From NCBI GenBank assembly GCA_000004985.1, contig GG738870.1: a stretch of DNA of 64,000 nucleotides; one strand, given 5' to 3'. Position numbers and translations under genes: made by a program. This DNA is from Naegleria gruberi. Its lineage: Eukaryota. Below, one piece after another: positions 2,031 through 31,609 of this stretch. The notes under the pieces are model-generated. The model was given only the letters and a program-made list of their open reading frames with translations, had not been told where the DNA came from and did no database searches. How positions within the stretch are numbered: position 1 is the first letter of the stretch; each line of letters begins with the position of its first letter.

Positions 2031-3350
2031 ATAACCCGCTAAAATATTTCCACGTAAATATTTTTATTTTTTCATTAATTTTTTCGCACTTTTGTTAACA
2101 AAAATTCAAGTCAAACTTTATTGATTTTCGTTAATAATTAACAAAAAAAACGAAATAAAAACGTAAACGTTTGTTGGGAAAAAAATTTCAAATTTACAGG
2201 TAAATTAACGCTAAATTTTATCGTAAATTATTGACGATTTTTCAATAATGTTTAACGTTAAATATTATTGAAAAATGTATCAANNNNNNNNNNNNNNNNN
2301 NNNNNNNNNNNNNNNNNNNNNNNNNNNNNNNNNGTTCTCTCGGAAGCTCACAAATTTCAACACTATTACTTGATCGTCATGTTGAATAGTCAACTGCGAT
2401 AATTGGATGATATCTTGATTTTAGACTTTGAGTGTACCAGACTTAGTTATTATCTGAATCTGAATCCGAATCTGATCAAGGCATGAAATCAAAATCTCCA
2501 ATTTTAGATCAAGATTGAAAGGCAACTCTCTCAAATTTGTGGCTATGATTCTATGCATGTATTATATGAATGAATATTGCAGGATATGATGGCCATGATT
2601 CCAGTTCTTTATTGGGAGAAATTCGATCTCCTCTTCCTGAAACAAAAATATCCTTCATTTCTTCACAAATCTTATTCGCTGATTTAATATCTTGCTGAAT
2701 TGGAACATATGTTGTTGAAAGAGTGAAAATGAGTCCTTCTCCAAAAAGGCAGAATTCATGCTAAAGGGCAGTATAATCAACAGCATTTTACAAGTTCAGT
2801 TCACAGAAAATTTGAAGGTCCTTCTTTACGGAAACAAATCTTGCTAATCCTTTAACACCTGCAGAACAAGTTCAATAGAATCCATTACGTATTATGATAC
2901 TTGTCAATTATGTGATCTTCTTGATCTGAATGAACCCTTAAATTCAGGACAATGTATTGCTGGCAACTATGTAGTGAGTAAGAAACGAGATGCTTTGATA
3001 CAAAAACAAAGAAGGTTTGTCAGGTTGAGTCCTTTTATAATGACTTTTCTTCAATACAGCTTGCTATTGAAGAACCGAAACGTATCATTGAGATATCAAG
3101 GAAAAAGGGTTCCGTGTGTTATTCTTGACCCTTCCAAACAGGCCTAACAAGTATATTACAACAATCAATACATTTAATATTTGACTTTATTAATTTCAAG
3201 ACTTGGTGAAATTTCAAATACTTTCGAAAAAATTTACAAGTCGAGCTTGGGCAATTCTACATTTCGCTCACATCGCAAAAATCCATTAACAAAAAATCGT
3301 TAAAAGTCAAGCCAGCATTTGCGAAAAGGGTTTAGCGGGTAATTTAACTT
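2031..3350. mobile_element. Possible relic of a non-autonomous DNA element (MITE-like) bounded by short inverted repeats; contains the assembly gap
   Basis: cataACCCGCTAAAat at ~2031-2046 recurs inverted as ggGTTTAGCGGGTaa at ~3329-3343. TTTTCGCA/TGCGAAAA and caagtcaa/ttgacttg motifs are also mirrored. The ~1.3-kb interior has no ORF over 60 codons yet is GC-richer than normal intergenic DNA. Confidence 0.2.
2284..2333. other. Assembly gap (50 N)
   Basis: Run of n characters in the sequence. Confidence 0.99.
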
Positions 3351-9950: not shown

Positions 9951-11043
9951 ATGAATGAGCAAAACTCTTCCACAACATCCGCTCCAGAGGAAAGACAAAG
10001 AGGTTTGAGCAATGGAGAAGCAAGCTCTTCAATCTTCCAAACACCATCAAGAAACAACAATGAGGAAGGTTTTTCTGCCTCAACACCCTTCTCGGCTTTT
10101 AGAACAGCTAAGAAGGAGGAAGAACAATCATCATCACAAGGAGGAAATGAAGTATCAGCAGTTAAGGCTAAATATACTGAAAAAACACCATCAGCAGTGA
10201 AATCAGAAACTAGAAATTTGTTGAAGAGAATGGATACAGATGATGCTCTGGAAGCCTTTGAACAATTGTACACTTTGAGTTTGTTTGGTAAGTATCAAGG
10301 TGATCGTTTAAAATTAATAACAATCACACAAACAGCCAGTCACAGACAGCAAATGCTCGATACTGGAGTTATCAGTTCCCTCACTTTGGCATTAAAAACA
10401 AAGCAAAATCGTATCAGGGAATATTGTGCAAGGACTCTTCAATTATTTGCTCAAGACGGAGAAGAGAGTTGTATCGCAATGAAGAGACTCAATATGTGTA
10501 ATTCTAGTTTGGAAATTATTTCTAAAGTTGATGATTTGAATGTAAGAATAACTGTAGTTGGATTAATTTATTGGCTCTGTCAAAATCGTATGTAAATAAT
10601 TATTAGATATATTCAAAATTTCCCATACAATAGCACATTGTAAAAAAGAATTTGTTGATATGGGAACTGAATCCTACATTAAGGAAATTTCAAATAAGAA
10701 TAAGGATCCAATGCTTGCTAAATATTTGAATTATGTATTACACAGTCTCTCCAGTAGAGTGAAAAGTAGAGAAGAAATGTTGAATGAGATTCTTCTCCAA
10801 CAAAAGGAAATGCAAGCTTTGGAACAAGAAAAGAAACAAGACTTTATCCCATATGTAAATCCATCTCCAAGACACTTTTTCAATATTTCTAAAACCCCTT
10901 CTTCCTCTCCAATGACAACCCCAAGAAAAAAGTTAGATTTCTCCACTCCTTCAAAAGCTAACACATCCTTTTCTCAAACTGAAAAATCCACAACCCTAAG
11001 ATCTGAATTGGTTTACGAATCTGATGAATTTGGAGGTCAATAA
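9951..11043 (+). CDS. Hypothetical protein, 2 exons (~9951-10587 and 10634-11043; 46-nt GTATGT...AG intron)
   Basis: Exon 1 (...VGLIYWLCQN) joins in frame to the 10660 ORF (PHCKKEFVDMGTESYIK...) across a GTATGT...caatag intron. First ATG is at 9951 (MNEQNSS). Confidence 0.5.
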
Positions 11044-11156
11044 TCTCTTTAACTTTTCAACTCCAAACTCAAAATGATTTGCATCAGAATAAAAGTAAGC
11101 CTATTGAAATTCTGCTAATTACCGTTGCATTTGTAAATTGCACTAAATTTCAAAAA

Positions 11157-13971
11157 ATGCCCAGACACCATGTTGAATTATTCACACCAGAATTTAGGCA
11201 ATTGATTTTGAACAGTTGCACCCAAAACGAAAGCTCATCCGTATCATATTCTCCATCATTTAATTATGAGGAAGTTAATCATGAAACAGAACCACAAATT
11301 CGTTTGTCTATCCGATTCAAACCAGAAAGTACAATTGCAATAATTGAAAAAAGATTGCTCCGAGCTGATTTGGATATCATATTTAAAATGTATAATTTAA
11401 AAAGAATTTTTGGATTTCAAGTTTTGAATAGATTTGATGAGGGAAGTTCTAAGAAATTATTATCCGAATGTGATTTCTCTCAAGCACAACAAATGGCTGA
11501 AATTATTGAATACATGTTCGTGAAAGATCTCTCTAAACAATTATCCAATCATATCAAAGTACGTAAATGACAATATAGTATAATAATCACTGATTTTTTC
11601 AGGTTAAAATGGCTACCATTAAAGATGTGACAACTATCGTAAACGAGGTCAATCAATGGGTTACAACAACACTAGCCCAATTCAATAATCAAGAAGAAAT
11701 AGTCTTAACTCCAATTGAAAAAAGCTATTCATATTTCTCTGATAAACCATACAGTAAGTACTTACTATTTTTACATATAATAGTTTACACATTTCAGAAG
11801 CCAATCAAAACAAAATTACCAAAAAGTCAGATAATTACGAGCTTAATACCATCAAATTTATGCATAAGGGCTCATTTTCCATTGAACAATTTTTTTCTAA
11901 TAAGATTTTCGAGAAGCAATGTATTACAGAGAAGCAGCCTAACCCTCTTTCTAAAAGATTTTTACACAAATCTGTGTTTATTAGATCCAAAAATTGTATT
12001 GTAACATATGGAGGGTTTGCAATTGGAAAAGGAATCACTGACGACATTATCAAATTTGATTTGGAACAAAAGAAAGCTACTCAATCAACAAGTAGAAAGG
12101 GAAGAATCTTTCACACCTTTGATTACCTTCCACACTTGAATAAGATGGTAGTTTATGGAGGAATTGAAAAAACTGGATCCATTTCCTCTGACTTAATTAG
12201 TATTTCAATGGACTTTTCTTCGGATGTCAGAAGTAATGAGTTTTTACCACCTCTATGCTGTCACTCTGCAGTTACACTTTTTGACACTCTCTACATATTT
12301 GGGGGTTTTAATGGAAGCACCTCAAAATATTCCAATACCATGTACTCATTACATATTCCAACATTAAGTATCAAATCTTCAGCATCCAAATTTTGTCCGA
12401 GTGAAAGAATTGGATCTGCAATGACCATAGTTGGGGATAATATTTTTGTTTTTGGAGGAATGGATTCTAATGGAAATATTCTCTCAGATATTTACAGATA
12501 TAACATTTCACAAGATTTATTCCATCCTATCTTATCTGATGAATATGCCATTAATCCAAAATTATGCTTTTCTAATATGTTTATTATAGGAAATAATATC
12601 TACCTATTTGGAGGTTGGAATGGTGTAGAATGGAATAATTCTCTTTTTGAAACAAGCAAAGAAGAATTTAAATGGAAAATAGCAAAAGGTTATACTAATA
12701 GTATTAGTTCTGATTTTAATTCATATAATCCTATGAGTAGTATTGTACCTGTATCAGAGAAAATAATTTACTTACTAGGAGGATTGGACTTACCTTTCCC
12801 TTTCATTTCAATACTGGACACATTTGCTACTTTAGCGACTGGAAAAATTGACTTTACAATTTCAAATACAAAGCCAAGTTACAGAATATTTCAACACAAA
12901 CGTCAAACAGATGAATTTTTACTCTCACAAACATACTTGAATTGGTTTAAGAAGCAAATTCCAGAAGAGTGTGACGTGACCATTCTTGTTAACATCCCAA
13001 ACCAAGTTGAGCAAGAATTATTTTATGGATTCAAGTTAGTTCTTGTAAGATCACCAGTATTGTCAAGAAAAATATTGGAACAAGAAGGCCATAATAAGTG
13101 GCGTAATTTGAAGCATGGCAGCCATGCTGTTATCCTCTTGGATGATTTCCCATCAAACGTAGAAAATTTGAGAAGGTCATTCAATTCAGTTTTGGAATAT
13201 TTATATTCTGGATCCTTCTCAACAAAGGATTTAAAGTCTGAAGATTATTCAGACATTTACAAGGTGGCCTGTTACTTAGAAATACCACTACTTTACAAAG
13301 CTCTTGATGGAACACTCAATGTTGATGATTCACTGGAAACAAAGAATCTATTATCCACTATAACCATTCAACTTGACCATTTATTCAGCCCATGTGAAAC
13401 CATTTCGAATATTGAAGATTTCATGACAACTATTGATGAAAATCCAATTGCACCTGGAATGGTGAAAATCATTGCCCCTACCTCATTAGATAGCTCAACA
13501 TATCAATCTATTCTTGTCCACAAGTTTATTTTGACTCAAAGATGTAGATATTTTAATGCTGTGTTTGAAATGAACTTCCTAGAGTCTCATACTAGAGTTG
13601 TTTTAATTGAGCAGAATACCTTCAAAGGTCTATTGTCAATTTTACATTTTGTTTACACTGGTAATATTGTGGAGCTAGATCTTTCCAACGCAGTAGAAAT
13701 CTTCATGTCTTCATTCCAATTTGAACTGGAAGAACTAATGGAAGCTTCTAAACTATTCATTAGAGAACATGAATTTGATGTATTTACCACTATTCGACTA
13801 TTAGAGATTTGTGAAACAGTAAATGATAAGATCATGCAAGATTATTGCAAGTATAGCATTGCTAAACGTTACGAAATAGTTATGAAACATGATCCATCAG
13901 CACTTGATAATTTAAGTAAGGTATCTAGAGTGGATATAAATGATTTAAGAAAGTCTGTTTTGAAGCACTAG
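11157..13971 (+). CDS. Kelch-repeat / BTB-BACK protein, 3 exons (~11157-11558, 11603-11753, 11798-13971), ~908 aa
   Basis: Kelch-type blades with repeated YGG/FGG motifs (e.g. IVTYGGFAIGKG, MVVYGGIE, LYIFGGFNGS) are followed by a BTB-like region (CDVTILVN...QELFYGFKLVLVRSPVLS, ...VLIEQNTFKGLLSILHFVYTGNI). Introns are 44 nt and 44 nt with GTACGT and GTAAGT donors. Confidence 0.7.
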
Positions 13972-25917: not shown

Positions 25918-26951
25918 ATGGGGTTCAACGTTACGACCTTGCTCTTGGACAAGTTCACCGAAGAGTTGAAGAAAGGCTATGAAAAAACCTACGGAGGCTT
26001 GAATTCAAACTACAAAGTAAGTGTCAAATATTCAAATATAATCTAATCATCATCTTCTCCCACAGGAAATTATTTGTTGGGCTGCTAATATGGCATTGGA
26101 TATTATTTCTAATAGTGATGCTTTGTATCATAATGTTGAACATACAATTCATGTCACTTTGGTTGGTCAGGAGATTTTGAGAGGTAAGTTGTGTGGCTAG
26201 AGATTATTTCGGAGGCTAATATCATCATAGGTAAACATATTAAAGAAGGAGGAGTGTCATCAGAAGATTGGCTTCATTGTATCATCAGTCTCTTGTGTCA
26301 CGATATTGGTAGGTTTTATATTTAAATATTTGATGACAATAACAAATCAATATTATTATGACAGGATATGTTAGAGGAGTTTGTAAAAAGGATAACATTG
26401 AACAAGGAATATTTGCTACTGGAAAAGGAGAAGAAACAGTAACTGTAATATCAGGCTCAACTGATGCTTCATTAACCCCTTATCATGTCGATAGAGGCAA
26501 ATTATTTGTTGAGGAAAGATTTAGTGGACATTCTCTGATTAAGGTATCAGTTATTCAAAAGAATATTGAGCTCACTAGATTCCCAGTTCCAATTGGAGAA
26601 GATCCAAAAGATTCTAATGGGTATCCAGGTATTGTTAGAGCAGCTGATTTAATTGGTCAATTATCAGAACCTCGTTATTTACAAAAAATTGCAGCTCTCT
26701 ATTATGAATTTGCAGAAACAGGAACAGCAATCAAGCTTGGTTACAAATGCCCAGGTGATTTGAGAAACTCCTATCCTAAATTCTATTGGAAATCAGTTTA
26801 TCCTTATATTAAGAATATTTTACCATTCCTCAACACAACTCAAGAAGGTAAATTCTATCTTGCTGGTCTCTATGCCAATGTCTTCAGCGTTGAGCATCTT
26901 GAAGGATCAATCTCTCCTGTCGATGAAGCTCCTGTAAATGTTGAACACTAA
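25918..26951 (+). CDS. HD-domain metal-dependent phosphohydrolase, 4 exons (~25918-26016, 26066-26185, 26231-26308, 26365-26951)
   Basis: H...EHT...V in exon 2 and LLCHDIG in exon 3 form the H...HD signature. Three GTAAGT/GTAGGT...YAG introns of 46-56 nt keep one frame into the 26358 ORF. Confidence 0.7.
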
Positions 26952-27327
26952 ACCATCATACTATTGTAAAATAAATTCATGAAATTACTTGTACAATTGT
27001 TTTAAAGGTTTTCTTAATACGTTTTTACACTGAATAAAAAGGCAGGACATAGTTACCAGTTATCTACTGTAAATTAATTTCACCAATCAAGACATGGTTT
27101 ATTATCTTTGATAGAGAATCATGGAAAATAGGAAAGCAATAAAAACTCTCTCTAAATGACCGACATGTCCACGAATTAAAAGTACAATAAGCACAACGAG
27201 TTCAAGTTTTGTTGTCAATGTTATTGCGACACTTCACCAAAAACTGGCTGTATTCTTTATCCTTCCTCAAAAAAAAAACAACTAACCTCTCACTCCACAC
27301 TACGTCATCATCATTCTAGAGAAGAAA

Positions 27328-29726
27328 ATGGTCAACAGTGAATTGAACAAGCTTCCATTCCATGAACAAGAATTGATCGAAAAACATTTGACCAATATGA
27401 ACTTATTGGGAGGATTGGATCATTATGACCATGCTGGATATTTAAAGTACTCCGATAGGATGGGTAATTCATCATCTGGCTCTGAGATTTTCATTCATCA
27501 AGACTTGTTGAAAAACAATAGTAATGTTTTGGAGATGAATCACACAAGCAATTCAAAACAATTAAGTTTTGCCGATCCTGATATTCGTAAACAGTTAATG
27601 GATGAATATAATAAGCATATTTTAAATCCTTACGGTAATGGTCTTTCTAGATTGTTTGATTGTGTGGATTTGCACGCTAATCAAAGACCAAATGATATTG
27701 CCATTCGTGAATATAATACTGGAGAAGATGTTACTTGGTCTCAGCTTCAGCTCAGTAGTAGAGCTATTGCTGCCAAAATGTTATCTTTGGGATCCTTTAA
27801 AAAGGGAGATATCGTTGTTACTCATCTTCCTCTATTGAAGGAACATTTGTATTTTATGTATGCTTGTTGGAGATTGGGAGTCATTGTTGTTCCACTCGAT
27901 TTACGTTTGAAAGATAGTGAAATTTGTGTTTCTTTGGATAAATTATTAGGCATTACACCAAATGATACAAAGGGAAATGGAAAGGTTAAAATGTTTGTCT
28001 TTTTGGGTAAAACTCCAATTCATGATTTCCGTCCTATCATTGACCAAGTAATGGATAGATTTGTTTCAAAAATTCCACATTGGATTCAATTCCAAAAGGA
28101 AAAGGAATTTATCATGCCACGTGCTGTTAGTGTTACTGACTTTTTGTCTGATGCCAAGAGTGTGTATATTATGAACAGAATTAAGGAACTGTCACTTGGA
28201 ATGATCCTTCCATCCTCTTTAGTATCAACAGTCGCTTCAATGGAAGCACAATGCACACGTCGTACACCAAATCTCATTATTTTCACAACTGGATCAACTG
28301 GTGTTTCAAAGGCCGCTATTCTTTGTCATGAAGGTATTTTAATGCAAAATTTGGCTACCAAAATTGCATTTACAGGTATCTTCCCTAATCCACACAAATT
28401 GGTCAACTTGTGCAACCTTCCTCCATCACATGTTGGTTGTCTCACTGAACAAGTTTTGACAGCCATCTATGGAGGTGGTCAATTGGTTATTATTCACGTT
28501 TTTGAACCAGAAAAATCCCTTGATGCAGTTCAAAAGTACAAATGTAACCTTATTGGACAAATTCCAGCCCTTTTCTCAATGGTAAGTTTTTTTAAAATGT
28601 TCAATGAACAAAATCTAACTCTATTAGGAATGGGCTTTACCTAACTATAAAAAATATGACATTTCAAGCTTGGGAATGGCAATTTATGGTGGTCAAGCTG
28701 TTACTAAGCCATTCTTGCATAAAATGCAAGCTATGGCTCCATATATTGGTTCAGGATTGGGACTTACTGAAACAGCTGGTTTTTGTACATATACTCCAGT
28801 TGGTATTTCTGTTGATCAAATGTCTCTAAGTATTGGATTTGATGCTCCTTTCTGCCCAATTTCAATTCGTGATCCTCCAAGAAAAGTCACTTGTCCAAGA
28901 ACAGGCAAAGTCTTCTTAATTGCAGGAGAAGAAAAAAAGCCAGGAGAAGTAGGTGAAATTTGTCATAATGGACCTCAAATCTTCCTTGGTTATTTGAATG
29001 ATTCCAAGACAACAGGTGAAACTATCATTCCAATAGATTTGGATACAGCAGCTAAATTGGATTATTCAAAGATTTTGAATTATGATCCAATTGATGGAAA
29101 TTTGAATGGAACAAACAAATCAGGAATTGTCAACCAAACCCACCCAGTTAATTATTATAATCTCCTTTTATATACTGGTGATATTGGTTCATATGATTCA
29201 ACAGGTCTTCATTTTGCTTCCAGAAGAAAATTCATCATCAAGCCAAAAGGATATCAAGTCTTCCCAGGTGAAGTTGAAGAACATTTGGAACAACACTTTA
29301 AATTATTGGGAGCTCCTCAAAGTTTGAAGAATGGAAAGCTTTGGGATATGGTAAAGTCAAGATTTGAGGAACAAAAAGATGAAAGCGCTGTTTTAAGAGT
29401 TGGTGTTGTTGGTGTGGAGCATGAAATTTATTCTGAAGCTGTTGTTGCTGTCGTTGAATTGAAGAAAGACCTTGTTGAGCTTGCCAAACAACACACAACA
29501 GATCCAGAACGTTGGTTCGATTTAATTTTGAATGAGAAGGAAATTATAGAAGCATGTAAGGATATTGCTGCTTATAAGAGACCTTCCTATGTTTTCTTCT
29601 ACCTCCTGGAATGGATATGCCTCTCAATAGAACAGCCAAGATTGATTATTTGGCCTTACAAGATTTTGCCAAGAAACAAGCTGCTGCTTTGGAACAAAAG
29701 AAGAAACTTCGTTACTCGTCACTCTA
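27328..29726 (+). CDS. Adenylate-forming enzyme (acyl-CoA synthetase / AMP-binding family), 2 exons (~27328-28581, 28628-end; 46-nt intron), with an apparent frameshift near the C-terminus
   Basis: FTTGSTGVSKAA (AMP-binding core), YTGDIGSYD...IIKPKGYQVFPGEVEEHL (A7/A8), and LPPGMDMPLNRTAKIDYLAL (the A10 Lys motif) seen only in the -1 frame from ~29595. The ORF-track frame runs on to 29785. Confidence 0.75.
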
Positions 29727-30460
29727 AGAAGAATATTAAAATTATTAACACAAAATATCTTATTGTAAACCATCTTCTTTCATAAAGAGTTTCACTTGTA
29801 AAAACACCTTGCAATATTAACATTAAATAATTCACTCTCTTCAACTCTTCCCATCACAATAAGGTTTAGTATATTTAAAGAACCAACCTCAAAAAAATAC
29901 TCATCATCTAAACTTCCTTAAAAACAAACTGAGTATTTATCAATATCCAACTCTCTTCAAAGCATTTCACAATTTTATACAACACCTTCACAACATAATT
30001 AATCAACATCTGTAGTTGTATAACCTATTACCTTATTTCTATTTTTATCAATTGTGTATGAAAAAATACCCTTCCTTTTATTGCTCAAAGGCAACTTCTT
30101 CCTGTCTTGCCTCTTCTGTTCTATGAATCTTTTATTACTCCGTGATTTGGCTTTTTCGGTAGCCATTTCGATGACAAGTCGTTAAAGTGATTCTCCAGCA
30201 TAAATTTGACGTCTTCGCTGCTCAAAAGGATTTGTGCTCAAATTCCGTCTAAAAATAAAATCAAAAAAAAAACACCTAGAAAACCAACGTAAATTTTCTA
30301 CAACGGTTTTCTTCTAGACAAGTACTGCGACTCTAATTTTACGATTACTTTGCGTGAATAATTTATTATTGGCTAATTTCATCATTCAACGGATTTTCCA
30401 TTATACAACAAATTGGAAGTAAAAGGATTTTAGGATAAACGTTTATCATAAAACATCAAA

Positions 30461-31609
30461 ATGAGACAACAAATTATGGAAGGAGAAACATTTGATATAC
30501 CGGAATATTATAAATTGGAAAAGATTATTGGTAGAGGATCGTATGGAGTTGTTGCTAGTGCTCTTGATACGAGGACTAATGAACGAGTTGCCATCAAGAA
30601 GATTTCCAATATTTTCCAAAAAAACAAGGACTATCAAAAACGTATTGTTAGAGAGTTGAAAATTCTAAAACACTACAATAGTGTTCATGGACATGAGAAT
30701 ATTGTTCAATTGAAGGACTTGGTTGTTCCAAGATCTGAAAATGAACTGAAGGATTTGTTCATTATAACTGAGTTGATGGATTGTACTGTTAGAGACGTTT
30801 TAAAGAGTAATCAAGCATTTACTGAAATTAACACCATTTACTTTTTGTATCATATGTTGAAAGGGTTGGCCTTTATCCACAGCTCTGGTATTGCTCACAG
30901 AGATATCAAACCTCAGAATATTTTGGTCAATGAGGTTTTCAGAATTGCCTACTGCGACTTTGGTTTATCGAGAGGAGTTGATATTGACTCTAAAATTTCT
31001 ACTAACGATGTTGCCTCAATGTGGTACAGGTCTCCTGAAGTTATTCTTGGTTATGAATATGGAATGAAACCAATGGATATTTGGGGTATTGGTTGTATTA
31101 TGGGTGAAATGCTCGCTTCAGGTAAAGTTTTATTCCAAGGTTCTTCTGCTCTCGATGTATTAGACAAACAACTTGAATTACTTGGTACACCAGAAGAAAG
31201 TGCAGTTAAAGGTTCTTTCAAAGCTGTCAAGTATTTCAAGTCGCTACCAGTCAAACAAAGACCAGACTGGAAAACATATTTCCCTAACGCCTCTCCAGAA
31301 GCTCTTGACCTGCTGTCCAAGATGTTAGAATTTGACCCAGATAGAAGAATCACAGCTGAACAAGCTCTTCAACATCCTTACCTTTCGTGTATTAGAGAAC
31401 AATACATGAGTGATGAAGAAATAGTGTGTAATTCTAAGTTTGACTATAGATTTGATGAATCTATGAAAACAGAATCTGTGCGTAAATTCCTTTATGAAGA
31501 ACTCAAACAATTTGTCCAATACAGTAACACATCTCCAAACCCAATAGTGAAGGATGAAACTGTGACATCACCACTTCCAACATCCAGAACAATTGGATGT
31601 ACTAATTAG
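30461..31609 (+). CDS. CMGC-group MAPK-like protein kinase, single exon, 382 aa; activation loop T-N-D instead of T-x-Y
   Basis: GRGSYGVV, VAIKK, HRDIKPQNIL, DFGLSR, WYRSPE. The loop reads STNDVASMWYRSPE where MAPKs have TEY. Confidence 0.8.
   Translation: MRQQIMEGETFDIPEYYKLEKIIGRGSYGVVASALDTRTNERVAIKKISNIFQKNKDYQKRIVRELKILKHYNSVHGHENIVQLKDLVVPRSENELKDLFIITELMDCTVRDVLKSNQAFTEINTIYFLYHMLKGLAFIHSSGIAHRDIKPQNILVNEVFRIAYCDFGLSRGVDIDSKISTNDVASMWYRSPEVILGYEYGMKPMDIWGIGCIMGEMLASGKVLFQGSSALDVLDKQLELLGTPEESAVKGSFKAVKYFKSLPVKQRPDWKTYFPNASPEALDLLSKMLEFDPDRRITAEQALQHPYLSCIREQYMSDEEIVCNSKFDYRFDESMKTESVRKFLYEELKQFVQYSNTSPNPIVKDETVTSPLPTSRTIGCTN

What the first reader, a model, noticed from the sequence alone, without database searches (positions are those of the whole stretch)
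29560..29790. Apparent single-base frameshift removes the conserved C-terminal Lys motif of the adenylate-forming enzyme
In the annotated frame the protein ends ...AAYKRPSYVFFYLLEWICLSIEQPRL..., which has no counterpart in AMP-binding enzymes. Shifting by one base at the ttttcttctacc stretch (~29595-29606) gives LPPGMDMPLNRTAKIDYLALQDFAKKQAAALEQKKKLRYSSL*. This is the expected ...LP.T..GKIDR.AL catalytic-lysine A10 motif, with a clean stop at ~29726. The cause is either a homopolymer indel error in a draft assembly or a recent inactivating mutation.
Basis: partly seen in the sequence, partly recalled or inferred. Interest (0 to 1): 0.5.

Follow-up and report, generated by a model that had tools for sequence, protein, structure and literature searches.

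The report
One missing T frameshifts acyl-CoA-synthetase-like gene
In this Naegleria gruberi sequence, an acyl-CoA-synthetase-like gene lacks a single T near its 3' end, so the catalytic-lysine motif and a probable peroxisome-targeting tail fall out of frame; this is an ordinary lesion (a very recent mutation or a sequencing error), and the public gene model hides it behind a spurious intron.

Summary
The window is Naegleria gruberi NEG-M. The gene (exon 1 27328..28581, 46-nt intron, exon 2 from 28628) is a class I adenylate-forming (ANL) enzyme.

- **The frame change.** It reads in one frame up to TTC 29597-29599. All homology and codon bias then move to the -1 frame: LPPGMDMPLNRTAKIDY...RYSSL, TAA 29725-29727.
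- **Orthologues.** Two orthologues, one from a JGI metagenome and one from Willaertia magna, are collinear and have exactly one more nucleotide at this point.
- **Independent sequence.** A 99.7%-identical N. gruberi-like sequence from run ERR1078381, assembled by two different assemblers, reads TTCTTCTTACC where the window reads TTCTTCTACC. The window therefore lacks one T, from a Leu codon TTA.
- **Public model.** The public model EFC44000.1/XP_002676744.1 (767 aa) bridges the defect with a spurious 50-nt "intron", 29591..29640. This deletes VFF(L)PPGMDMPLNRTAK, including the catalytic Lys.
- **Second lesion.** The ERR1078381 contig carries its own premature stop (K219*, AAG>TAG at 27982). 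Each of the two sequences therefore has a different disabling lesion.
- **Verdict.** That second lesion tips me slightly towards a real, very recent strain- or allele-specific mutation (about 0.5) over a Sanger consensus error (about 0.42). Only reads can decide. Programmed frameshifting is unsupported. Scientific interest is low, but the finding is a useful annotation correction.

The parts
27328..28581 (+). Exon 1 of the adenylate-forming enzyme gene (NAEGRDRAFT_68043 / EFC44000.1). It covers the N-terminal extension and most of the AMP-binding domain.
   Evidence: ORF listing. The spliced translation aligns end to end with orthologues P0001 and P0002. The exact public model was reproduced from these coordinates. 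Pfam AMP-binding scores 157 bits.
28582..28627 (+). Genuine intron 1 (46 nt, GTAAGT...TTAG). It moves the frame from 1 mod 3 to 2 mod 3.
   Evidence: The sequence was read directly. Removing it joins ...IPALFSM|EWALPNYKKYDISS..., which is collinear with the intronless orthologue P0001 (...IPALFQMQWALPSFSKYDLSS...). It is used in the public model.
28628..29599 (+). Exon 2 in frame A (codon starts = 2 mod 3), ending ...CKDIAAYKRPSYVFF.
   Evidence: L003 3459-3554 matches window 29504-29599. Codon-usage log-odds are +0.51 bits per codon in this frame.
29599..29600 (+). Lesion site: one T is missing between these bases. The window reads TTC TTC TA, whereas the independent allele reads TTC TTC TTA (Phe Phe Leu).
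   Evidence: The ENA contig L009 and the Logan contig L010 both read TATGTTTTCTTCTTACCTCCTGG where the window reads TATGTTTTCTTCTACCTCCTGG. Orthologue codons at this point are TTC ATT (L003) and TTT TTA (L004).
29600..29727 (+). True C-terminal coding segment, now in frame B: (T)TA Leu, then PPGMDMPLNRTAKIDYLALQDFAKKQAAALEQKKKLRYSSL and TAA 29725-29727.
   Evidence: It is identical to the last 42 residues of P0140, encoded in frame on L009 and L010.
29620..29649 (+). A10 motif PLNRTAKIDY in frame B. The catalytic Lys codon AAG is at 29638-29640.
   Evidence: MPLNR[TV]AK[IT]DY is invariant across the eukaryotic, archaeal and bacterial homologues aligned. It aligns, in weak sub-threshold local segments, to luciferase ...P.G.TGKID..., the A10 Lys region. 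It supplies Pfam AMP-binding_C profile positions 66-76.
29716..29724 (+). C-terminal tripeptide Ser-Ser-Leu in frame B, a PTS1-like putative peroxisomal targeting signal.
   Evidence: The window and P0001 end -YSSL, and Willaertia P0002 ends -YSKL. The PTS1 interpretation rests on general knowledge and was not tested.
29600..29785 (+). Out-of-frame continuation of frame A (YLLEWICLSIEQPRL...HLLS, TAA 29783-29785). This is the tail the sequence encodes as it stands, and it has no homology.
   Evidence: The best BLASTP E-value is 0.51 against 7 homologues. Codon-usage log-odds are +0.01 bits per codon.
29591..29640 (+). Spurious 50-nt 'intron 2' of the public gene model (GTTTTC...CCAAG). It bridges frame A to frame B and deletes VFF(L)PPGMDMPLNRTAK.
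   Evidence: P0290 (EFC44000.1, 767 aa) equals the translation of join(27328..28581, 28628..29590, 29641..29727) exactly. The interval encodes residues conserved in all homologues. AMP-binding_C of P0290 stops at profile position 63 of 76 and scores 20.8 bits, below the cut-off.

Best explanation
The gene encodes a 784-residue class I adenylate-forming (ANL, acyl-CoA-synthetase-like) enzyme. Its C-terminal subdomain carries the invariant A10 lysine (PLNRTAKIDY), and the protein ends in a PTS1-like -SSL.

In the NEG-M sequence one T of the ancestral TTC-TTC-TTA (Phe-Phe-Leu) is missing at 29599/29600. Translation of the sequence as it stands runs into a meaningless 61-residue tail. It loses the last 43 codons, including the catalytic Lys and the targeting tripeptide.

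- **Shown:** the lesion, its exact position, and its absence from a 99.7%-identical N. gruberi-like sequence and from two orthologues.
- **Inferred, my committed reading:** it is a genuine, very recent, strain- or allele-specific loss-of-function mutation. It probably arose by slippage in the TTCTTCTT micro-repeat, in a gene that currently tolerates disabling alleles in N. gruberi. The product as it stands would be unable to carry out the adenylation half-reaction and would not be imported into peroxisomes.
For: **Lesion and position.**

**Ancestral state.** The in-frame allele is P0140, on L009 (ENA MEGAHIT assembly) and L010 (Logan assembly). The orthologues P0001 and P0002 are in frame.

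**Youth of the lesion.**
- The rest of the 784-codon reading frame is intact.
- The displaced tail keeps full codon bias and 60-81% identity to the orthologues.

**Evidence that disabling alleles are tolerated.**
- The only other N. gruberi-like sequence available carries an independent nonsense mutation in the same gene (AAG>TAG at 27982, K219*). It splits the ORF into two gene calls.
- About 16 kb was compared between the two sequences, and every other indel lies outside the long ORFs (for the last one, see the Against line). This is the only gene seen to carry a frameshift or premature stop, one in each sequence.

**Assembly type.** The assembly is Sanger-based (PMC9928731, Table 1). By general knowledge, consensus indel errors are rare in such assemblies, roughly 1e-5 to 1e-4 per base.
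Against: - No reads, traces or transcripts of NEG-M could be examined, so a consensus error at a low-coverage spot cannot be excluded.
- Four of the five remaining substitutions between the two alleles are synonymous. The gene was therefore under purifying selection until very recently, which is what one expects if the gene is functional and the missing T is an artefact.
- The nonsense allele in ERR1078381 is covered by one assembly only. It may be a heterozygous or minor haplotype, which weakens the 'dispensable gene' argument.
- A 2-nt indel at 11150 lies inside the stop-to-stop ORF 11028..11570. I judged it probably intronic but did not verify this, so the statement that no other coding sequence is affected is not fully tested.
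- My estimate that 'real' slightly outweighs 'error' rests on rough prior rates, not on data from this locus.
Confidence: 0.5

Rival explanations
1. Base-calling or consensus error in the draft Sanger assembly. The NEG-M genome really reads TTCTTCTTACC, the gene is intact and functional, and both the frameshift and the spurious intron in the public model are artefacts of the record.
For: - The in-frame sequence exists in a 99.7%-identical N. gruberi-like genome.
- The gene is otherwise flawless over 784 codons, and the displaced tail is perfectly preserved.
- The substitution pattern is 4 synonymous to 1 missense, which indicates recent purifying selection.
- It is the only frameshifting indel seen in coding sequence between the two sequences in about 16 kb (the 2-nt indel at 11150 was judged intronic without verification).
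- This is a draft whole-genome shotgun assembly.
Against: - By general knowledge, consensus indel errors in roughly 8x Sanger assemblies are rare. I would expect about 0.01-0.06 per 2.35-kb CDS.
- The site is not a long homopolymer or a GC compression.
- Such an error would have to fall by coincidence in the one gene that carries an independent nonsense allele in the other sequence.
Confidence: 0.42
2. The 50-nt interval 29591..29640 is a real spliceosomal intron, as in the public model EFC44000.1. The mature NEG-M mRNA would then be in frame and encode a 767-aa protein without the A10 motif.
For: - The interval has GT...AG boundaries and a length of 3k+2, which restores frame B.
- The annotation pipeline chose this model.
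Against: - The interval encodes, across its two frames, VFF and LPPGMDMPLNRTAK. These are collinear with and conserved in all orthologues and prokaryotic homologues, including an intronless orthologue.
- In the in-frame allele the same interval is 51 nt of plain coding sequence.
- Its donor GTTTTC is unlike the GTAAGT of the gene's genuine intron.
- 79 different GT..AG pairs would restore the frame, so finding one is expected by chance.
- The resulting protein lacks the catalytic Lys, and its AMP-binding_C match is truncated at profile position 63 of 76.
Confidence: 0.03
3. Recoding: a programmed -1 ribosomal frameshift or transcriptional slippage on the U-rich tract GUUUUCUUCUA yields the full-length enzyme from the sequence as it stands.
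For: - The required shift is -1.
- A P-site tRNA-Phe on UUC 29594-29596 could re-pair with UUU 29593-29595, giving YVFLLPPG..., which has the same length as the orthologues.
Against: - There is no canonical X XXY YYZ heptamer.
- The 104 nt from just before the site (29597) to 29700 fold no better than shuffled sequence (z=+1.32; 190 of 200 shuffles fold at least as well).
- The shift is not conserved. The closest relative and both orthologues are in frame at this site.
Confidence: 0.02

Closest known systems
ANL superfamily / class I adenylate-forming enzymes (acyl-CoA synthetases, 4-coumarate-CoA ligases, firefly luciferases; Pfam PF00501 + PF13193)
   Same: - The AMP-binding domain scores 157 bits.
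- The best solved relatives are 4-coumarate-CoA ligases, luciferases and FadD-type ligases.
- The A8 hinge region ...ASRRKFIIKPKGYQV... aligns to them.
- The frame-B PLNRTAKIDY aligns, in weak local segments, to the luciferase ...TGKID... A10 lysine region.
   Different: - In the window the A10 lysine is out of frame.
- The protein has an N-terminal extension of about 100 aa and several insertions relative to its ~566-aa prokaryotic relatives.
- No NCBIfam equivalog reaches its cut-off, so the substrate is unknown.
Heterolobosean orthologues: P0001 (JGI metagenome 3300002220, 743 aa) and Willaertia magna ABK040_001556 (P0002, 771 aa)
   Same: - They are 67% and 55% identical over about 92% of the length.
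- They share the same insertions and the same C-terminal architecture...AAYKRP.Y..F[IL]PP.M[DE].PL.RTAKIDYL.L..FAK...YS[SK]L.
   Different: - Both are in frame through the site. They have 12 nt where the window has 11.
- P0001 has no intron.
Gene-model artefacts: frameshifts bridged by invented short introns in automated eukaryotic annotation
   Same: The public model inserts a 50-nt GT..AG intron exactly over the frameshift and thereby removes conserved coding sequence.
   Different: Nothing unusual. This is a textbook instance.
Segregating loss-of-function alleles and incipient pseudogenes in natural or laboratory strains
   Same: Each of two 99.7%-identical sequences carries a single young disabling lesion at a different position, in an otherwise intact and recently constrained gene.
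   Different: Zygosity, allele frequency and whether the NEG-M lesion is real are all unknown.

Membership tests
ANL / class I adenylate-forming enzymes | N-terminal AMP-binding domain (PF00501) above the Pfam gathering score | tested here: met
   It scores 157 bits against a cut-off of 29.9, both for the sequence as it stands and for the repaired protein.
ANL / class I adenylate-forming enzymes | A3 phosphate-binding loop T[ST]G[ST]TG.PK | tested here: met
   FTTGSTGVSKAA is present in the translation and aligns to SSGTTGLPKG of 4-coumarate-CoA ligase. Pro is replaced by Ser here, whereas P0001 has TTGSTGMPKAA.
ANL / class I adenylate-forming enzymes | C-terminal subdomain (PF13193) complete and above the gathering score | tested here: not met
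   - Sequence as it stands: 21.9 bits, profile positions 11-65 of 76.
- Public model: 20.8 bits, positions 11-63.
- Both are below the 24.5 cut-off.
- The feature is met only after a 1-nt repair (26.9 bits, positions 11-76) and in the in-frame allele P0140 (27.5 bits).
ANL / class I adenylate-forming enzymes | Invariant A10 catalytic lysine in the same reading frame as the rest of the enzyme | tested here: not met
   - The Lys codon AAG 29638-29640 lies in frame B, while the enzyme body is in frame A.
- The lysine is in frame in P0140, P0001 and P0002.
- The locus is therefore a member of the family by descent, but the product encoded as it stands lacks this defining residue.
PTS1-targeted peroxisomal proteins | C-terminal tripeptide matching (S/A/C)(K/R/H)(L/M) | tested here: inconclusive
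   Willaertia -SKL fits the consensus. The window (frame B) and P0001 end in -SSL, a non-canonical variant. No import test or predictor was available.
Programmed -1 ribosomal frameshift sites | Slippery heptamer X XXY YYZ in the zero frame | tested here: not met
   The zero-frame sequence is TAT GTT TTC TTC TAC, which contains no such heptamer.
Programmed -1 ribosomal frameshift sites | Stable downstream stimulatory RNA structure | tested here: not met
   Positions 29597-29700 have an MFE of -14.4 kcal/mol against a shuffle mean of -18.6, giving z=+1.32.
Programmed -1 ribosomal frameshift sites | Conservation of the frame change in relatives | tested here: not met
   L009, L010, L003 and L004 are all in frame at this site.
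Spliceosomal intron (annotated intron 2, 29591..29640) | GT...AG boundaries, with removal keeping an open frame | tested here: met
   The interval is 50 nt, GTTTTC...CCAAG, and the product is P0290. However, 79 alternative GT..AG pairs do the same.
Spliceosomal intron (annotated intron 2, 29591..29640) | Interior is non-coding, that is, not collinear with conserved residues of intron-less homologues | tested here: not met
   The interior encodes VFF / LPPGMDMPLNRTAK, which is conserved in all homologues and is plain coding sequence in the in-frame allele.
Spliceosomal intron (annotated intron 2, 29591..29640) | Splice junction observed in transcripts | not testable with these tools
   No N. 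gruberi transcript data are reachable from here.

The most novel reading that the evidence does not exclude
The NEG-M sequence is correct, and the cell still makes full-length active enzyme by recoding: a -1 ribosomal slip of tRNA-Phe on UUUUC, or polymerase slippage on the UUCUUCU tract. That would be a newly arisen recoding site in a heterolobosean nuclear gene.

A less exotic but more probable reading has a probability of about 0.35-0.5 and an interest of about 0.3. Under it, both lesions are real, and N. gruberi populations carry independent loss-of-function alleles of a putative peroxisomal acyl-activating enzyme, which would be gene loss caught in progress.
Probability: 0.02. Interest if true: 0.6.

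Novelty: new member of a known kind. Interest (0 to 1): 0.15.

Why it matters
The main value is for curation.

- **The public protein is wrong at its C-terminus.** XP_002676744.1 / D2VGN7 lacks the 17 residues that carry the catalytic lysine, because a predicted intron papers over a 1-nt defect. Anyone using this protein for phylogeny, active-site analysis, or prediction of peroxisomal or lipid metabolism in Naegleria would be misled.
- **A correct sequence is available.** The 784-aa version (...KRPSYVFFLPPGMDMPLNRTAKIDY...RYSSL) can be taken from the in-frame allele.
- **If the lesion is real**, NEG-M, the standard axenic laboratory strain, is a natural null or heterozygote for this enzyme. 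With the independent K219* allele, that would indicate relaxed constraint on the gene in N. gruberi.

None of this bears on a long-standing open question.

Tried and rejected
1. **Word-index homology searches were misleading.** The search for homologous proteins with the repaired full-length protein and with the last 162 aa returned no near-identical sequence. I first concluded that no independent copy existed. That was wrong. The exhaustive HMMER scan found P0140, which is 100% identical. Negative results from the word-index search should not be trusted.
2. **Exact-sequence look-ups that found nothing.** These covered ORFs as they stand and a spliced model as it stands with five alternative starts. 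NCBI-side look-ups also failed.
3. **Scan of JGI metagenome contigs with the C-terminal peptide.** It returned only distant relatives (45% and 30% identity) and no N. gruberi-like locus.
4. **Neighbouring ERR1078381 contigs.** L001 starts at 29725 and L007 ends at 27138, so both just miss the site.
5. **Attempts to guess the public model.** Enumerating single-base repairs (58 products), GT..AG bridges (79) and short skips gave too many candidates to test by exact look-up. The cluster look-up of P0140 solved it instead.
6. **Literature.** I found no paper mentioning XP_002676744, EFC44000, D2VGN7, PRJEB11402 or ERR1078381. Nothing specific turned up on Naegleria acyl-CoA synthetases either.
7. 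**Programmed frameshifting** was rejected.
8. **Local repeats and hairpins around the site.** Only short chance matches were found.
9. **Synteny with the orthologue loci.** There is none beyond the gene itself.
10. **Survey of adjacent ORF pairs in different frames across the window, to gauge assembly quality.** It was uninformative, because most such pairs are ordinary introns.
Full report
**What the window is.** The window has 33% G+C. Seven of its ORF products are letter-for-letter identical to GenBank proteins of Naegleria gruberi on a 418,085-bp scaffold. Examples are EFC43999.1 (26358..26951) and EFC44096.1 (34504..36084). The MAP-kinase ORF at 30461..31609 clusters with the shorter public model EFC44001.1 (377 aa) and is itself identical to a metagenome-derived protein. 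A pangenome paper lists the N. gruberi assembly, strain NEG-M ATCC 30224, as Sanger-sequenced (PMC9928731, Table 1).

**Gene structure.**
- Exon 1 runs 27328..28581.
- A 46-nt GTAAGT...TTAG intron occupies 28582..28627.
- Exon 2 starts at 28628.
- Splicing joins ...IPALFSM|EWALPNYKKYDISS..., which is collinear with an intronless orthologue.
- The product is a class I adenylate-forming (ANL) enzyme, with Pfam AMP-binding at 157 bits.
- Its best solved relatives are 4-coumarate-CoA ligases, luciferases and FadD ligases.
- No NCBIfam equivalog reaches its cut-off, so the substrate is unknown.

Frame A (codon starts = 2 mod 3) reads ...AAYKRPSYVFFYLLEWICLSIEQPRL... and continues to TAA 29783-29785. 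Frame B (1 mod 3) is open from 29576 and reads ...LPPGMDMPLNRTAKIDYLALQDFAKKQAAALEQKKKLRYSSL, with TAA at 29725-29727. Four independent measures show that coding moves from frame A to frame B at 29599/29600.

1. The 42-aa frame-B tail hits the exact C-termini of the two orthologues, and also hits Asgard and deltaproteobacterial homologues. The E-values against the orthologues are 1.8e-13 and 8.5e-13. The frame-A tail hits nothing (best E=0.51).
2. tblastx segments that are contiguous in the orthologue loci L003 (3554|3555) and L004 (8223|8224) map to window 29504-29599 and 29599-29700. They overlap by one base.
3. At the DNA level, both orthologues have 12 nt between TAT and CCT CC(T/A), and the window has 11.
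4. Codon-usage log-odds, trained on 22 other ORFs of the window, are +0.51 bits per codon for frame A upstream of the site. Downstream they are +0.54 for frame B and +0.01 for frame A.

Pfam AMP-binding_C is truncated (profile 11-65 of 76, 21.9 bits, below the 24.5 cut-off) for the sequence as it stands. It is complete (11-76, 26.9 bits) after a 1-nt repair. The motif MPLNR[TV]AK[IT]DY is invariant in every homologue aligned. Its Lys aligns, in weak local segments, with the luciferase ...TGKID... A10 lysine region.

**Independent sequence across the site.** The word-index protein search found no near-identical protein. An exhaustive HMMER scan of 1.84 billion representatives with exon 2 as it stands then returned P0140. 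This protein is 350 aa long, 100% identical to the query up to the site, and continues for 41 more residues.
- Its sequence is MAIYGG...AAYKRPSYVFFLPPGMDMPLNRTAKIDY...LRYSSL.
- It is encoded on ENA contig ERZ929261 k127_234596 (L009, = window 27522..29739, 99.7% identical).
- It is also encoded on Logan contig ERR1078381_1227593 (L010, = window 28403..29739). These are two different assemblers working on one sequencing run.
- Both contigs read TATGTTTTCTTCTTACCTCCTGG where the window reads TATGTTTTCTTCTACCTCCTGG.

The window therefore lacks one T of a Leu codon TTA, the same codon as in Willaertia. This sits within the micro-repeat TTCTTCTT. It is not a long homopolymer.

**How the public annotation deals with it.** The 90% cluster of P0140 contains EFC44000.1 / XP_002676744.1 / D2VGN7 (NAEGRDRAFT_68043, 767 aa). 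Its sequence goes ...AAYKRPSY|IDYLALQDF...YSSL. It is exactly the translation of join(27328..28581, 28628..29590, 29641..29727). The model therefore invents a 50-nt intron, 29591..29640 (GTTTTC...CCAAG).
- This intron bridges frame A to frame B and deletes VFF(L)PPGMDMPLNRTAK, including the Lys codon AAG 29638-29640.
- The interval is conserved coding sequence in every homologue and in the in-frame allele.
- 79 other GT..AG pairs would restore the frame equally well.
- The resulting protein's AMP-binding_C match stops at profile position 63 of 76.

I regard this intron as a prediction artefact.

**Error or mutation?** This cannot be settled without reads.

For an artefact:
- The in-frame version exists in a 99.7%-identical genome.
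- The gene is otherwise intact, and the displaced tail is pristine.
- Four of the five other substitutions between the two alleles are synonymous.

For a real lesion:
- The other allele carries its own disabling change, AAG>TAG at 27982 (K219*), which splits the ORF into two gene calls on L009.
- In about 16 kb compared between the window and ERR1078381 contigs L001, L007, L009 and L011, all other indels lie outside the long ORFs. A 2-nt indel at 11150 inside the stop-to-stop ORF 11028..11570 was judged intronic but not verified.
- No other gene in that comparison shows a frameshift or premature stop.
- Two independent disabling differences in the same gene suggest that such alleles are tolerated there.
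- By general knowledge, Sanger consensus indel errors are rare.

The nonsense allele is covered by only one assembly, and its zygosity is unknown. With rough priors I put a real strain- or allele-specific mutation at about 0.5 and a consensus error at about 0.42.

**Other readings.**
- *Programmed -1 frameshifting* is unsupported. There is no X XXY YYZ heptamer, and the region from 29597 to 29700 folds no better than shuffles (z=+1.32). All relatives are in frame at the site.
- *No true intron can repair the defect.* The conserved residues abut on both sides of the site.

**Consequence for the protein.** What follows is inference from established ANL enzymology. The A10 lysine is required for the adenylation half-reaction, so both the product as it stands and the public-model product should be catalytically dead. 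Both alternatives to the true frame also alter or remove sequence leading to the C-terminus. The product as it stands additionally loses -SSL. That tripeptide is conserved with P0001 and corresponds to -SKL in Willaertia, so it probably directs the enzyme to peroxisomes.

**Verdict.** The finding is real and correctly interpreted, but it is an ordinary kind of event. Its practical value is to correct a public protein model and to supply the proper 784-aa sequence. The two independent lesions are a modest hint of ongoing gene loss.

Noticed in passing
window 27982 (compare L009 position 461): The ERR1078381 allele of the same gene carries AAG>TAG (K219*) in exon 1 and D83N at 27574. The other four substitutions are synonymous. 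Each of the two N. gruberi-like sequences therefore has a different disabling lesion in this gene.
   Followed up: partly
window 29591-29640: The public model EFC44000.1 / XP_002676744.1 / D2VGN7 contains a spurious 50-nt intron here. It removes the A10 catalytic-lysine motif, and the model was reproduced exactly from window coordinates.
   Followed up: yes
window about 2035-3339: A 1305-nt segment is present in the window but absent from ERZ929261 contig L011, whose empty site reads GGGTTCATAA|TTTAAC. The segment ends in a 9-nt terminal inverted repeat (CCCGCTAAA...TTTAGCGGG) and is flanked by a TAA/TAA 3-bp duplication. It looks like a non-autonomous PIF/Harbinger-type DNA transposon insertion that is polymorphic between strains.
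   Followed up: partly
L001, L002, L007-L011 (ENA ERZ929261 / Logan ERR1078381, project PRJEB11402): A run labelled as a metagenome contains a Naegleria gruberi-like genome 99.1-99.9% identical to NEG-M across the aligned contig segments. Small differences between the two assemblies near contig ends hint at more than one haplotype. The nature of the sample could not be traced in the literature.
   Followed up: partly
window 29716-29724; P0001 and P0002 C-termini: The orthologue group ends in -SSL (N. gruberi, P0001) or -SKL (Willaertia). These are PTS1-like tripeptides and suggest a peroxisomal acyl-activating enzyme.
   Followed up: no
whole gene 27328-29727: Outside Heterolobosea, the closest relatives (about 43-46% identity over about 86% of the length) are ~566-aa 'class I adenylate-forming enzymes' of Asgard archaea, Syntrophales, Desulfarculus and similar. 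This points to possible lateral transfer or an ancient shared family. Willaertia has two paralogues (P0002, P0005). For N. fowleri only the other paralogue (P0003) appeared among the hits, but that search tool proved incomplete.
   Followed up: no
window 26358-26951: The upstream neighbour (EFC43999.1, 197 aa) hits Pfam PF28239 (Npun_R2479), a family named after a cyanobacterial protein. Its sequence is identical in the ERR1078381 strain.
   Followed up: no
tool behaviour: The word-index homology search missed a protein that is 100% identical over 350 aa, and so missed its cluster, which contains the public N. gruberi protein. The exhaustive HMMER scan found it at once. Absence of hits in the former is not evidence of absence.
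   Followed up: yes
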